Shown here piece by piece: positions 3,001-6,000 of a stretch of DNA of 13,865 nt; positions within the stretch are counted from its first letter, which is position 1, and each line of letters opens with the position of its first letter. Position numbers: made by a program. The stretch is from a virus. The stretch lies in the UHGV virus genome UHGV-0099111; one strand, written 5' to 3'.

Positions 3001-6000
3001 AACGTTGATGTTGTTTGGCTTCAGCACGGCACTTCGTTAAATGGAGCGAATGATGAAGATACTCTTTCATTTGTTGGCAAATTAAAAAAAGGGTTAGTGC
3101 GCGTGGTTGGTGAGGCAATTCTTGGTGTTGATGGTGCCATCGAGATGACCGAAGAGCGCGATGGGTGGCTCAAGATTTATAGCGATGATCCAGATGCCTT
3201 TGGTCTTCGTGTGAAAGGAGACAGCATGTGGCCCAGAATAAAATCAGGAGAATATGTACTCATTGAGCCTAACACCAAAGTATTCCCGGGTGATGAGGTG
3301 TTTGTCAGAACCGTTGAAGGACACAACATGATCAAAGTTCTTGGCTATGACAGAGACGGAGAATACCAGTTTACAAGCATCAACCAGGACCATAGGCCAA
3401 TAACGTTGCCTTATCATCAAGTAGCAAAGGTGGAGTATGTGGCTGGTATTCTGAAGCAATCTCGCCATCTGGATGACATCGAGGCAAGGGAGTGGCTGAA
3501 AAGTTCGTGACTTCATCGTCACATAGCTGATAGCCAATGGCCTGAAGAGACGTTTGGGTGATAAGAGAATATCTGATAGTAGGCGTGGTTACTTTGCTCT
3601 CGGTTGTTGCGATCGTGCTTATGGTGGCCTGATGAGGTGTTTGGTTATCAGGAGTACGCATGAGGATAGGTATTGCTTTTCCGGTGATAGTGTTCATCGT
3701 GGCTGTGGCGTTTATGGCGTGGTTTGTCGTGGGTGGGTATGCGACGCCGGGTGGTTGATGAGACGTTTGGGTGAGATTGATGATGTAAGAGAGGTCGCAG
3801 AGATGCGGCCTTTTTTTTAATTGTCAAAACTCACAACCACGCACCCATGAGAATCTTTTTTTCACTCATGGCAATCATGACATTGACTCACACCACTTCT
3901 TTATGCCAGGATCATTTCAATCCAGAAAATCCTGGAAAATGATCTACTTAGGTGGAATATGCAACTTCTAACGAAAGAAAAGTTCTTTAGCTTTGTTGAG
4001 AACTACGAGCGCCTAACAGCGTCCAGTTCCAGAACAGCAGAGAATATTCAGTCGGTATGTCAACGCGTTGAGGTTTTTATACCTTCTGATTCACCTGCTG
4101 ATGCATGGGATGTACAAGGCATCGTTGATAGATATGCAGAGACCGTATCACTCAGTGAGGACAGCAAACGTTCATATAGCAGCCGCTTCAATAGCGCTGT
4201 ATCAAAGTTCATTGCTTATGAGAAAGGGGAAGATGTGAAGGCTAAGCCAAAGCCAAAGCGTCAACGTTCTGCTACAACAAAGCCTGTAGAGGAAAACTCA
4301 GTGAAGACTTTTGAATTGCCAATCCCATTGCGGGGCGATCTAATTGTCAACATTGGCAACCTACCTCGCGACCTCACAAGGGAAGAGGCAAAGCGGATCA
4401 GCAATATTATTGAGTCGTTTGCAATGTTTGACGATCTCACAAAAGAATAAAGCCCCGTTTGCAGCGGGGCTTCATAAGTGGAAGTTTTGGAAACTTCCTG
4501 AGTACAGGTTAACTGTTACCCACTAACTTAGACAATTAGAGGATAACGGTTGGCCGGGGCAAACGCAAGACTGTAAGGGATTACAGTCTGGGTTTAAATA
4601 CAGGTAAATCGTTATGATGGCACATGATGTAAATCGTGATGACTATATCTACGAACACGACAAACCGGTTTATGTGCGCAGCTACTGCCGCGTACGTTTC
4701 GGTGAACTCGAAAATGTTCGTCAGCACTTTCGTTCATATCCGAACTGCTGAGTAAGTATTGTCTAACCAGCCCGGCCTCAGCGCCGGGTTTTCTTTGCCG
4801 CACGATCCCCATCTAAAGACACATAACCAATTGTATTTATTTCAAAATTAATAGATACAACTCACTAAACATCGCAATTCAGATCTCTCGATCACCTTCC
4901 AAGCCACACCCCCCTGCAAAATATAACCCCATAAAATACAAAACGTTATAAAAAACTAATCATATTTAGAACATTTTGTATTGACTCAATAAAGTACACA
5001 TCGTACTATTTAGCCATCAGCAGGACGCACTACTCACCAGGGCGGTGAATATACAACGATTCAGAGATGAATCTACGAGGCTGAAAAGCCTAATAACCAA
5101 AGTGAACTTTGGGATGCGATGAAATGCAGCCCGTTGAGGCAAGCCGAAGATAAGCACCGGCCATTGCATCACCAAAGTTCATCAGGAGGTCACTATGACA
5201 CGCAGAACAGCTTTCAATGGCTCAGCATCAGGTCGTCGTCGTGAGCGTCGTGCAGCGCTCCAGAATGAGATTACGGCAAGCTCAGAAGTATTACACCGCC
5301 CTACTCTAAGCAGAGCGCAGATTCAGGCTAAAGGTACTCACGAAACGCCTGAGCGCATAGAAGACGCTAAGCCAATTAAGTTCATGGCACAGGACGTGAT
5401 CTGGCAACAGAAAGAATACAGACGCAATCTGGAGCGAGCGGCCATTGTGTACGCGAATGAGTTTGGACATAAGCAACCAGAAACTGGTGTATGTCTTCCA
5501 AACGTAGCCATTTACGCGGCAGGCTACCGGAAATCAAAACAACTGACGGCGAGGTGACTTGTGTTGGTCGCCAGAAGCAACGCGGAAAATCAATTCCAGC
5601 TTATTACGATTGAGGTGGTCATGCTCAAGAAAGTCAAACGCCGACTTTACAAAGAAGGTAGATATTCATGCCAGTTGCCAAAATGCGACACAACAAAATG
5701 GAGTGTCGATGATTGGTGTAACTGGATAGATAGATACGGAACTTGGTGGGATAAATAACAGGTAACTTAAGCGTATTTACTTTCGCGGCAAACCACTTAT
5801 TTGAGGTGATATATGGAAGAAGAATTTGAAGAGTTCGAAGAGCATCCGCAGGATGTGATGGAAAAATACCAGGACTATCCGTATGACTGCGACTATTGAT
5901 AAGAATCAATGGTGTGGGCAATACGAGCGGCGGCAATGATTGCCGGATGTGGCGCTTTACGCCACTGGACATCGCAGCAGAAAATCGGTTACGGCGCGTT

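What the first reader, a model, noticed from the sequence alone, without database searches (positions are those of the whole stretch)
3511..4800. Uncharacterised cargo cassette in the cI-to-pL slot, where lambda carries rexAB
Between the cI stop (3510) and the pL candidate (4981) there are about 1.3 kb unrelated to core phage functions: a repeat-rich segment with a possible 32-aa membrane peptide (ending at terminator 3793-3818), an orphan 163-aa protein with its own palindromic upstream region (3959-4450), and a 45-aa ORF (4614-4751) ending at terminator 4771-4796. In lambdoid phages this slot is a known hotspot for exclusion and defence cargo expressed in the lysogen (RexAB in lambda, Stk in 933W). 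Three separate terminated units suggest independently regulated prophage-expressed functions. None of the products matches a family I can name.
Basis: partly seen in the sequence, partly recalled or inferred. Interest (0 to 1): 0.75.

Follow-up and report, generated by a model that had tools for sequence, protein, structure and literature searches.

The report
Two mobile accessory modules behind prophage repressor
The DNA between the repressor gene cI and the pL promoter of this lambda-like prophage is real swappable cargo, made of two portable modules (a tiny YoaK-type membrane peptide riding on the repressor transcript, and a DNA-binding-type protein paired with a translationally gated 45-residue protein) whose functions are still unknown.

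Summary

1. Window 3538-3817 is a 280-bp mini-module. It is 96.6-98.2% identical behind at least four unrelated S24 repressors. It encodes a YoaK-family peptide (NCBIfam 63.6 bits against a cut-off of 32; 22/32 identical to E. coli K-12 YoaK). It sits between the cI stop and a terminator that follows cI in related phages. I found no promoter or terminator in between, so it is probably transcribed with cI. The "repeats" are fossils of cI 3' ends (…SQWPEETFG*) that serve as recombination joints.

VT2-Sakai orf22 is a homologue. Neither module matches a known defence family, and function is untested.

The parts
2803..3510 (+). cI repressor (HTH + S24 peptidase); the left anchor of the slot
   Evidence: Pfam Peptidase_S24 at 4e-16 and HTH_3. 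Its last 111 nt plus 52-56 nt downstream are about 98% identical to H-19B and Stx1 phages. The exact protein is common in E. coli.
3511..3562 (+). Fossil 1 of a lambda-type cI 3' end. It reads LHRHIADSQWPEETFG* in the cI frame directly after the cI stop. The core repeat is 3538-3562. It forms the left recombination joint of the slot.
   Evidence: Translation. The same sequence is the true end of cI in VT2-Sakai and Oslo. Similarity to H-19B and AU5Stx1 ends at 3562-3566.
3538..3817 (+). The 280-bp YoaK mini-module: fossil 1, an 87-bp unit, fossil 2, SD, the yoaK-like ORF, fossil 3 and a terminator. It moves as one block.
   Evidence: It is 96.6-98.2% identical, with sharp edges, in L010-L019. 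There it lies behind four different repressors and ahead of different cargo.
3625..3663 (+). Fossil 2 (…CLWWPDEVFGYQEYA*). Its TGA overlaps the yoaK-like ATG (ATGA). In E. coli CB7286 the shared sequence ends at this repeat.
3660..3758 (+). yoaK-like gene. It encodes a 32-aa single-pass hydrophobic peptide, MRIGIAFPVIVFIVAVAFMAWFVVGGYATPGG. The AGGAG SD is at 3650-3654.
   Evidence: NF033821 YoaK at 63.6 bits (cut-off 32), matched 1-32/32. Pfam PF28021 on all copies. 22/32 identical to K-12 YoaK. GRAVY (mean hydropathy) is 1.71 overall and 2.67 for the core. NCBI names it a YoaK family protein.
3751..3774 (+). Fossil 3 of a cI 3' end (VVDETFG*). It contains the yoaK-like stop codon.
3787..3819 (+). 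Intrinsic terminator (GGTCGCA-GAGA-TGCGGCC followed by T8). The same terminator follows cI in Oslo and Sakai, so it most likely ends the cI transcript.
   Evidence: It matches L009 2320-2374 and L007 2346-2373.
3883..3912 (+). Candidate promoter of the 163-aa gene: TTGACT-N18-CAGGAT (8 of 12 matches).
   Evidence: The same hexamers with a different spacer occur in L022. Promoter-like sites 28-48 nt before the ATG are found in 11 of 13 contexts. This is an inference only.
3906..3944 (.). Nested palindromes (CCAGGAT/ATCCTGG and GATCATTT/AAATGATC) that overlap the candidate -10 and transcription start. Two GATC sites lie within them.
   Evidence: Read from the sequence. A role as an operator or 5'-UTR hairpin is inferred.
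3959..4450 (+). p163, the 163-aa protein. Residues 1-90 form a core-binding-type helical domain. Residues ~91-115 form a K/R/P-rich disordered linker. Residues 116-155 form a highly conserved beta-hairpin plus helix domain.
4447..4475 (.). H1, a GC-rich hairpin right after p163. It is a weak terminator on the + strand in this window and a better one on the - strand. It is conserved in all homologues.
4480..4498 (+). H2, a leader hairpin.
   Evidence: Three of its pairs carry compensatory changes.
4507..4555 (+). H3, the long hairpin formed by W (4507-4518, anti-anti-SD) and X (4543-4555, anti-SD, AUAACGGUUGGCC). This would be the ON conformer.
   Evidence: All 8 distinct leaders fold this way, at -11.8 to -27.3 kcal/mol and z -1.7 to -4.4, with unrelated apical sequences.
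4561..4595 (+). H4, a leader hairpin.
   Evidence: Five of its pairs carry compensatory changes.
4603..4616 (+). Y, the SD-like GG(U)A plus the start codon of p45. It pairs with X in the alternative OFF conformer.
   Evidence: The X:Y duplex scores -8.1 to -17.0 kcal/mol in all 7 sequences. The minimum-free-energy fold switches between conformers among homologues.
4614..4751 (+). p45, a 45-aa hydrophilic protein rich in charged residues (7 K+R, 7 D+E), His and Tyr. It is a real coding gene.
   Evidence: phrog_21154 at 3e-29. Differences from SH2026Stx1 are mostly at third codon positions. It is 78-98% identical across contexts and has distant homologues in Sakai, Oslo and Morganella. Its Cys residues are not conserved.
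4769..4797 (+). Terminator CCCGGCC-N6-GCCGGG followed by a T-run. It is the 3' end of the p163-p45 module and the right recombination joint of the slot.
   Evidence: It follows p45 in every context, including non-lambdoid ones. It is also kept in H-19B and AU5Stx1, which carry other cargo.
4981..5009 (+). pL candidate (TTGACT-17-TACTAT); the right anchor of the slot. N follows at 5195-5557.

Best explanation
The interval holds two nested, horizontally mobile accessory modules ("morons": accessory units added to a phage genome), not three units.

**Module A (3538-3817).** This is a 280-bp block carrying a paralogue of the enterobacterial small inner-membrane protein YoaK. It is wedged between the cI stop codon and a terminator that follows cI in related phages. 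I found no promoter or terminator in between. The peptide should therefore be made from the cI (pRM/pRE) transcript whenever the prophage is repressed (inferred). The three 'repeats' are fossils of cI 3' ends (…WPEETFG*). They give about 25 bp of homology through which this block, and the cargo behind it, are swapped among prophages of different immunity (shown by comparison).

The most likely role is a lysogen-expressed single-pass membrane peptide that acts on an inner-membrane host protein. That action could block DNA entry of superinfecting phages or tune host physiology. The precedent is HK97 gp15, a YebO-like accessory protein that gives superinfection exclusion. This role is an inference and is untested.

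**Module B (~3883-4797).** This is a self-contained accessory module. Its parts, in order, are:
- its own sigma70-like promoter (inferred);
- p163, which has a tyrosine-recombinase core-binding-fold domain, a basic linker and a conserved beta-hairpin/helix domain but no catalytic domain, and so is a non-catalytic, probably nucleic-acid-binding protein;
- a leaky hairpin (H1);
- a ~140-nt leader in which an anti-SD segment (X) pairs either with an upstream mimic (W) or with the SD and AUG of p45 (Y), gating p45 translation (structure supported by covariation; the gating itself is inferred);
- p45;
- a terminator that travels with the module.

What p163 and p45 do is unknown. My best guess is a regulator/effector pair in which the conserved C-domain of p163 works with p45.
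For: **Slot variability and joints.**

**Module A.**
- YoaK membership.
- The block is 96.6-98.2% identical behind four repressor types and ahead of different cargo.
- No terminator or promoter lies between cI and the ORF.
- The same terminator follows cI in Oslo and Sakai.

**Module B.**
- Where p45 is present it always lies ~150-190 nt downstream of p163. This holds in the cI-N slots of SH2026Stx1, Sakai, Oslo and Yersinia intermedia; in a D5-primase element; next to dinI in Salmonella; near int in Y. enterocolitica; and in an Arc/Mnt/Ant region of Morganella. It also holds in 18/18 viral contigs.
- Core-binding fold: with weak sequence support.
- The family has 1015 cluster representatives, all 155-200 aa among the best 150 apart from a few shorter or longer ones.
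- Promoter-like sites occur 28-48 nt upstream of the ATG in 11/13 contexts.
- The leader region folds with z = -6.6.
- Both conformers are available in every homologue.
- Covariation: 89.8% of cells paired against 82.5% in shuffles (0/500 shuffles as high), 12 pairs with changes on both sides (6/500), and 35-49% paired in the slid controls.
- The terminator travels with the module.

**Literature.** The cI-N hotspot, rexAB and bstA: PMC8585504. The gp15/YebO precedent and the definition of a moron: PMC3594210.
Against: - There are no expression data. Co-transcription of the yoaK-like gene with cI rests only on the absence of consensus signals.
- The candidate promoter of p163 is weak (8/12, -10 CAGGAT), and relaxed scans give many chance hits.
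- The function of chromosomal YoaK is itself unknown, so the exclusion idea is analogy only.
- In the HK97 case, overexpressing or deleting chromosomal YebO had no effect on HK97 propagation.
- The core-binding-fold assignment is structural (3-15% sequence identity), and DNA binding is not shown.
- The covariation test uses 7-8 sequences, and the tested structure was derived from the same alignment.
- p163 occurs without p45 in three contexts (L008, L025/26, L027/28), so the two are not obligate partners.
- No hit to any PADLOC defence model.
Confidence: 0.6

Rival explanations
1. One reading: three independently regulated, lysogen-expressed exclusion or abortive-infection functions, analogous to RexAB or Stk, each with its own terminator.
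For: The position is that of rexAB, bstA and stk (plus established knowledge). Other occupants of the same slot include a HigB toxin and protease-like proteins. The small membrane peptide is reminiscent of exclusion proteins.
Against: No PADLOC or Pfam defence hit. Unit 1 has no promoter and shares the cI terminator. Units 2 and 3 are one module. The last terminator is part of that module and also of the phage backbone.
Confidence: 0.15
2. p163-leader-p45 is an addiction or toxin-antitoxin-like module. In this reading p45 is a tightly gated toxic small protein. It would be neutralised either by p163 (type II-like, through the conserved C-domain) or by a cis-antisense RNA that starts over the p45 start codon and ends at H1 (type I-like).
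For: The ribosome-binding site is sequestered and the leader is highly structured, as in type I toxin mRNAs. H1 is a better terminator on the - strand. Weak - strand promoter-like sites occur at the same offset in 5 of 7 homologues. p45 and the p163 C-domain are both far more conserved than the p163 N-domain. p163 occurs alone, but p45 was never seen alone.
Against: p45 is hydrophilic (GRAVY -1.0) and matches no toxin family. The - strand promoter matches score only 8-9/12, and their -10 is simply the reverse complement of the conserved ATGATG start. G·U pairs outnumber A·C mismatches in the helices, by my tally of the pair tables, which favours a + strand structure. The 163-nt gap is atypical for type II pairs.
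Confidence: 0.15
3. The cassette serves the phage itself rather than the lysogen. In this reading p163 is a DNA-architectural or recombination-accessory factor, or a transcription regulator of the lytic or early programme. The yoaK-like block would be a neutral hitch-hiker trapped among recombination scars.
For: The core-binding fold is a DNA-site-binding module of recombinases and of recombinase-like phage repressors such as MrpR and SroF. The palindrome overlaps the candidate promoter. The yoaK block is embedded in cI fossils.
Against: p163 sits in classic accessory-gene slots of unrelated phage types: lysis-terminase, the tail region, int-proximal, and a satellite-like element. It is absent from many close relatives. 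That pattern is typical of dispensable cargo. The yoaK block is near-invariant, with an intact SD and ORF, across at least 20 contigs, which argues against junk.
Confidence: 0.1

Closest known systems
E. coli K-12 YoaK (b4676), NCBIfam NF033821 / Pfam PF28021
   Same: Both are 32 aa and 22/32 residues are identical. They share the hydrophobic single-pass core and the GGYAxPG tail. The HMM score is twice the curated cut-off.
   Different: The window copy is prophage-borne and sits behind cI. The chromosomal gene sits behind dgcP and has a yoaJ partner, which is missing here. Nucleotide identity is only 66/99. The function of either copy is unknown. The held literature reports only RseP cleavage assays and detection by ribosome profiling.
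HK97 gp15 (a YebO-like accessory protein that gives superinfection exclusion)
   Same: Both are prophage accessory genes encoding a small membrane protein homologous to a chromosomal enterobacterial small protein of unknown function, and both are expressed from the prophage (PMC3594210).
   Different: The protein families differ (YebO versus YoaK). gp15 lies in the tail-gene region with its own promoter. Here the peptide appears to use the cI transcript. No exclusion phenotype has been tested.
Lambda cI-rexA-rexB operon, BTP1 bstA and 933W stk (occupants of the cI-N slot)
   Same: Same slot and same orientation, downstream of the repressor and presumably sharing its promoter. The slot is a mosaic hotspot.
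   Different: There is no sequence or domain similarity to RexA/B, BstA or Stk. The cargo here is much smaller.
VT2-Sakai orf22 (BAA84305), SH2026Stx1_00020/00019 and Oslo AMBK_51/AMBK_50; PHROGs 2602, 36396 and 21154
   Same: These are homologous gene pairs (30-45% identity for p163 and 48-91% for p45) in the same slot, between the same terminators.
   Different: All are annotated as hypothetical. In Sakai the small ORF is not annotated at all. The N-domains are strongly diverged.
Core-binding (SAM-like) domain of tyrosine recombinases (lambda Int, XerA, IntI4), and recombinase-like phage repressors (MrpR, SroF)
   Different: p163 has no catalytic domain (it ends at residue 163). Sequence identity is 3-15%. 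The C-terminal beta-hairpin/helix domain has no counterpart.
Two-state mRNA leaders that gate translation: lambda cIII mRNA alternative structures, and the leaders of type I toxins such as hok, tisB and zorO (from memory, not checked here)
   Same: An anti-SD segment has two mutually exclusive partners, and the SD and AUG are sequestered in one conformer.
   Different: No Rfam family matches. The trigger is unknown, and the gated product is a hydrophilic 45-aa protein.

Membership tests
YoaK family small membrane protein (NF033821 / PF28021) | HMM score above the curated cut-off over the full length | tested here: met
   63.6 bits against a cut-off of 32, E 9e-18, matched 1-32/32. PF28021 is recorded on all copies.
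YoaK family small membrane protein (NF033821 / PF28021) | About 32 aa with one hydrophobic membrane-spanning core | tested here: met
   32 aa. Core residues 4-24 have a Kyte-Doolittle mean of 2.67. 22/32 identical to K-12 YoaK.
YoaK family small membrane protein (NF033821 / PF28021) | Chromosomal context dgcP-yoaK-yoaJ | tested here: not met
   Here the gene lies behind a prophage repressor and no yoaJ-like ORF follows it. It is a paralogue in a new context, not the orthologous locus.
YoaK family small membrane protein (NF033821 / PF28021) | Synthesis and membrane insertion of the peptide | not testable with these tools
   This needs tagging and fractionation. The only support here is the AGGAG SD 5 nt upstream, with a GGAG variant in the other loci.
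Moron (autonomous accessory unit in a phage genome; Juhala/Hendrix, Cumby 2012) | Present or absent between conserved flanks in related phages, and found in unrelated phage contexts | tested here: met
   Module A. Module B. Other cargo between the same flanks.
Moron (autonomous accessory unit in a phage genome; Juhala/Hendrix, Cumby 2012) | Own terminator | tested here: met
   Module B: CCCGGCC…GCCGGGTTTT follows p45 in all 10 contexts. Module A carries the 3787-3819 terminator within the shared block.
Moron (autonomous accessory unit in a phage genome; Juhala/Hendrix, Cumby 2012) | Own promoter | tested here: inconclusive
   Module B has TTGACT-N18-CAGGAT (8/12). The hexamers are conserved in L022, and promoter-like sites occur in 11/13 contexts. 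Module A has none, so it is an operon insertion rather than a classic moron.
RexAB-type abortive-infection system | RexA-like sensor plus RexB-like multi-pass membrane protein | tested here: not met
   No Pfam, PADLOC, PHROG or NCBIfam match to RexA or RexB. The only membrane product is a 32-aa single-pass peptide.
RexAB-type abortive-infection system | Located downstream of cI and expressed from the cI promoter in the lysogen | tested here: inconclusive
   The position and orientation are met, and there is no intervening terminator for the yoaK-like gene. Transcription was not measured.
Tyrosine recombinase / phage integrase | Core-binding (SAM-like) helical domain | tested here: met
Tyrosine recombinase / phage integrase | Catalytic domain with the R-H-R-Y active site | tested here: not met
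   The protein is 163 aa. After the core-binding domain there is only a disordered linker and a 40-aa beta-hairpin/helix. Nearly all of the best 150 relatives are 155-200 aa. It is not a recombinase.
Type I toxin-antitoxin | Small toxin ORF on a highly structured mRNA with a sequestered ribosome-binding site | tested here: met
   Fold z = -6.6. X:Y pairing is present in all homologues.
Type I toxin-antitoxin | Hydrophobic or otherwise known toxic peptide | tested here: not met
   p45 has GRAVY -1.0 and matches no toxin family.
Type I toxin-antitoxin | Antisense RNA antitoxin with its own promoter | tested here: inconclusive
   There are weak - strand promoter-like sites in 5/7 homologues, and H1 can act as a - strand terminator. 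No expression data.
Known anti-phage defence systems (PADLOC-DB v2) | Significant match of any product to a defence-system model | tested here: not met
   Only noise-level hits: Avs1b at E 0.004 and 12.5 bits, and CorA at E 0.046.

The most novel reading that the evidence does not exclude
The p163-leader-p45 unit is an undescribed two-protein phage module. In this reading a core-binding-domain-only protein, with a variable N-domain that senses or binds nucleic acid, works with a 45-aa effector whose translation is held off by a bistable leader. The module would act as a new anti-phage, addiction or exclusion system. The prophage YoaK copy would be a cI-co-expressed exclusion factor whose target would reveal what the whole YoaK family does.
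Probability: 0.15. Interest if true: 0.7.

Novelty: new member of a known kind. Interest (0 to 1): 0.45.

Why it matters
- **A handle on YoaK.** YoaK is one of many conserved enterobacterial small membrane proteins with no known function. A near-invariant prophage paralogue that is apparently co-transcribed with the repressor, and spread across at least four immunity groups, suggests a selectable phenotype in lysogens. It can be tested with a 280-bp clone.
- **A large unnamed family.** The 163-aa family has over 1000 clusters at 50% identity. It is present in VT2-Sakai and many Stx phages, yet it has no Pfam entry or name. Knowing that it is a core-binding-domain-only protein paired with a translationally gated mini-protein gives concrete experiments.
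- **How cargo is exchanged.** The cI-tail fossils and the shared terminator show how cargo is swapped at this hotspot, through short conserved joints. This helps annotate other prophages.
- **Limits.** None of this is yet a functional discovery.

Tried and rejected
- **Known RNA families.** Rfam with permissive thresholds over the whole window found nothing in 3511-4800. The CUGAUGAG motif in the repeats made me consider a hammerhead ribozyme, but this result and the cI-fossil explanation reject it.
- **The 88-aa ORF at 3554-3820.** I considered it because the repeats lie in phase. It has no SD or family and is Cys/Arg-rich. It is an out-of-frame reading of the fossils and yoaK, so I rejected it.
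- **An internal promoter for yoaK.** I first noted one, then found I had miscounted the spacer (7 nt, not 17). I withdrew the claim.
- **A zinc finger in p45.** Rejected, because the Cys residues are replaced in the Sakai, Oslo and Morganella homologues.
- **Tool limits.** The afdb50 library was unavailable.
- **Species-representative genomes.** An exact 48-mer from yoaK found 0 matches in this collection, so the species distribution rests.
- **Near-identity DNA searches of the cassette.** Searches of phages, plasmids and complete E. coli genomes found only the flanks and the first ~100 bp.
- **Literature on YoaK.** The search returned only RseP-cleavage and small-protein discovery papers, with no function.
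Full report
**Setting.** The window is the immunity and early region of a lambdoid prophage.
- On the - strand lie P-like (337-1200), O-like (1185-2030), cII-like (2063-2359) and cro-like (2497-2757) genes.
- On the + strand lie cI (2803-3510; Peptidase_S24 and HTH_3), a pL-like site (TTGACT-17-TACTAT, 4981-5009) and N (5195-5557; Pfam N_peptide).
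- The finding covers the cI-to-pL interval. All of its ORFs read in the cI direction, as rexAB does in lambda.

**Observation check.**
- The 32-aa ORF is at 3660-3758, with AGGAG five bases upstream. A hairpin and T-run follow at 3787-3816.
- The 163-aa ORF is at 3959-4450, with a palindrome upstream.
- The 45-aa ORF is at 4614-4751, followed by a terminator at 4769-4790.
- Three direct repeats lie at 3538, 3625 and 3751.
- One more hairpin (4447-4475) sits right after the 163-aa gene.

**The slot is variable cargo between conserved joints.** Near-identity searches in phages, plasmids and 5,426 complete E. coli genomes find only the flanks.
- The left flank, from the cI 3' end to 3562-3566, is about 98% identical to H-19B and many Stx1/Stx2 phages.
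- The right flank, 4769-4887, is 84-89% identical.
- Between these flanks other genomes carry different genes. H-19B has a HigB toxin (Pfam 4.5e-30) with an HTH protein. AU5Stx1 has a 47-aa ORF. E. coli CB7286 has DUF6932 plus a hypothetical protein. E. coli HE_50 has DUF7946/7947. Others have an SDH Clp-fold protease or a P63C protein.
- This agrees with the literature. The cI-N region is a recognised mosaic hotspot that houses rexAB and bstA (PMC8585504).

**What the repeats are.** In the cI reading frame, the bases just after the cI stop codon read LHRHIADSQWPEETFG*.
- VT2-Sakai cI ends VIASQWPEETFG* and Oslo cI ends VVASQWPDEIFG*, using the same DNA.
- Copy 2 reads …CSRLLRSCLWWPDEVFGYQEYA*, and copy 3 reads VVDETFG*.
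- The repeats are therefore fossils of lambda-type cI 3' ends left by earlier exchanges.
- They also mark the break-points. H-19B and AU5Stx1 diverge from the window after copy 1. E. coli CB7286 diverges at copy 2. The yoaK block starts at copy 1.

**Module A: a YoaK mini-module.**
- *Family.* The 32-aa product scores 63.6 bits against NCBIfam NF033821 "YoaK family small membrane protein" (cut-off 32; full-length match). It is 22/32 identical to E. coli K-12 YoaK. Its core is strongly hydrophobic. NCBI already names the identical peptide a YoaK family protein in Enterobacter, Klebsiella and "Enterobacteriaceae".
- *Mobility.* The exact peptide is encoded on at least 20 contigs, always just downstream of an S24 repressor. 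The repressors are of four different kinds (230, 234, 236 and 251 aa; partnered with Cro/CII or YdaS/YdaT). The cargo behind it differs: usually a 339-aa ParA-like ATPase, and in one case the same 163-aa and 45-aa genes as here.
- *Boundaries.* The shared DNA is exactly window 3538-3817, at 96.6-98.2% identity and with sharp edges at cI fossil 1 and at the terminator T-run.
- *Expression (inferred).* The same terminator follows cI in Oslo, and lies further downstream of cI in Sakai. No terminator-like or promoter-like site lies between the cI stop and the ORF. An internal promoter that I first noted was a counting error and is withdrawn. The block is therefore an insertion into the 3' end of the cI operon, and the peptide should be produced in the repressed prophage.
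- *Known function.* Chromosomal YoaK has no known function in the papers I could search. They report only RseP cleavage assays and its detection as a small protein.
- *Closest functional precedent.* HK97 gp15 is an accessory protein resembling the chromosomal small protein YebO, and it gives superinfection exclusion (PMC3594210). This is an analogy, not evidence.

**Module B: p163, a structured leader and p45.**
- *Family of p163.* It matches phrog_2602 and phrog_36396 (both unknown function) and no Pfam family. A profile search finds 1015 cluster representatives. Nearly all of the best 150 are 155-200 aa with the same architecture. Ten diverse members still show nothing in Pfam except sub-threshold Phage_int_SAM hits.
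- *p45 is a real gene.* It matches phrog_21154 at 3e-29. Its differences from SH2026Stx1 fall mostly at third codon positions. Diverged homologues follow the p163 homologues of Sakai (unannotated), Oslo and Morganella.
- *The two genes travel together.* Where p45 is present, the spacing is 150-190 nt. The contexts are:
  - the cI-N slot of SH2026Stx1, Sakai, Oslo and a Yersinia intermedia prophage;
  - a D5-primase/SSB element;
  - next to dinI at pepN in Salmonella;
  - near int in Y. enterocolitica;
  - an Arc/Mnt/Ant region in Morganella;
  - all 18 viral contigs found through p45.
- *Exceptions.* p163 occurs without p45 in Yersinia phage YP3, a Cronobacter lysis-terminase slot and an Enterobacter prophage.
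- *Conservation.* p45 (78-98% identical) and the p163 C-domain are much more conserved than the p163 N-domain (45-64% for the whole protein).
- *Boundaries.* A promoter-like site lies 28-48 nt before the ATG in 11 of 13 contexts. In the window it is TTGACT-N18-CAGGAT, and L022 has the same hexamers with a different spacer. The terminator CCCGGCC-N6-GCCGGGTTTT follows p45 in every context. The same terminator persists in H-19B and AU5Stx1, which carry other cargo. It is therefore both the module's end and the slot's right joint.

**The leader of p45.**
- Window 4440-4800 folds far better than shuffles (-133 against -98 kcal/mol; z = -6.6).
- Seven homologous leaders align at a mean column identity of 71%.
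- They share H1 (4451-4471), H2 (4480-4498), H4 (4561-4595) and a segment X (4543-4555, AUAACGGUUGGCC).
- X can pair with an upstream segment W (4507-4518), forming the long hairpin H3.
- X can instead pair with Y (4603-4616), which is the SD-like bases plus the p45 AUG.
- Both duplexes are available in every sequence, at -10.8 to -21.3 and -8.1 to -17.0 kcal/mol. The minimum-free-energy fold switches between the two forms from one homologue to the next.
- On the X:Y structure, 89.8% of cells pair against 82.5% in shuffles (0/500 shuffles as high). Twelve pairs change on both sides (6/500). Slid controls pair at only 35-49%.
- On the W:X structure, all eight distinct leaders form one long hairpin (z -1.7 to -4.4). 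Their apical stems are unrelated in sequence, for example CCUUGGC/GCCAAGG against UCUAUGUCU/AGACGUAGA.
- This is the anatomy of a two-state translational gate.
- The sample is small and the tested structure came from the same alignment, so I rate the structure as likely and the gating as inferred. No Rfam family matches.

**What it most likely is.** The interval holds two accessory modules in a known hotspot, with exchange mediated by short conserved joints.
- Anatomy and mobility are shown by comparison of loci.
- Expression in the lysogen is inferred. The inference is good for the yoaK-like gene and weaker for p163 and p45.
- Biochemical function is unknown.
- My ranked guesses are as follows. 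For the peptide: action on an inner-membrane host protein, giving exclusion or a change in host physiology. For p163: non-catalytic nucleic-acid binding, with the conserved C-domain working with p45.
- A toxin-antitoxin-like reading is kept as a rival. It rests on the gated small protein, weak - strand promoter-like sites at the same offset in 5 of 7 homologues, and H1 acting as a - strand terminator.

**Verdict.**
- The claims of three independent units and of no nameable family do not hold.
- The cassette is a new member of a known kind: prophage cargo in the cI-N hotspot.
- It is built from a family NCBI already names (YoaK) and from PHROG families that occur in well-known Stx phages but have never been characterised.
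- Interest is moderate. The testable leads are the cI-linked YoaK paralogue, the large unnamed family of core-binding-domain-only proteins, and the bistable leader.

Noticed in passing
window 3658-3663: The reading frame of cI fossil 2 ends with a TGA that overlaps the yoaK-like ATG (GCATGA). This is the layout of translational coupling. It hints that in some ancestral phage a repressor gene ran directly into yoaK.
   Followed up: partly
window 4617-4447 (- strand): Weak promoter-like sites (8-9/12) lie over the p45 start codon at the same offset in 5 of 7 homologues. H1 has a better T-run on the - strand. A cis-antisense RNA to the p45 leader is therefore possible but unproven.
   Followed up: partly
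window 3910-3913 and 3941-3944; upstream regions of L006, L022, L027, L031: Two GATC (Dam) sites bracket the candidate promoter and palindrome of p163. By eye, two or three GATC sites recur in the ~170 nt upstream of several homologues. Possible methylation-sensitive expression. I ran no statistics.
   Followed up: no
L004 (H-19B, AF034975.3) 2746-3449: The cI-N interval of H-19B is unannotated in the GenBank record. It encodes a HigB-family toxin (Pfam 4.5e-30) followed by an overlapping HTH_3 protein, which is a toxin-antitoxin pair in the same slot.
   Followed up: yes
L010-L019, about 5276-6295: In most prophages that carry the yoaK block, the next gene encodes a 339-aa ParA/MinD-like ATPase (AAA_31, CbiA). 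It is another recurrent and uncharacterised occupant of the slot.
   Followed up: partly
window 4769-4797; L022, L024, L029, L031, L035: The terminator CCCGGCC-N6-GCCGGGTTTT follows p45 even in non-lambdoid elements. It also closes the slot in lambdoid phages that lack p163 and p45. The p163-p45 module, or at least its terminator, may therefore be ancestral at this position.
   Followed up: partly
window 6148-6250: A weak Rfam match to rsmX (31.4 bits against a gathering score of 56; E 0.011). It is driven largely by a terminal GC hairpin and U-run after the 68-aa ORF at 6023-6229. Probably chance.
   Followed up: no
window 7196-8218: A 340-aa ORF whose central ~200 residues are almost pure E/A/K/R repeats, with long antisense ORFs as a by-product. 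It looks like a coiled-coil early-region protein.
   Followed up: no
L007 (VT2-Sakai, AP000363.1) 3172-3294: An unannotated 40-aa ORF (MSTYNLNDQFDREVHVNAYERIRHGNLEHVCEHYRSRPHR) lies downstream of orf22. It is the diverged homologue of p45. Oslo annotates its counterpart as AMBK_50.
   Followed up: yes
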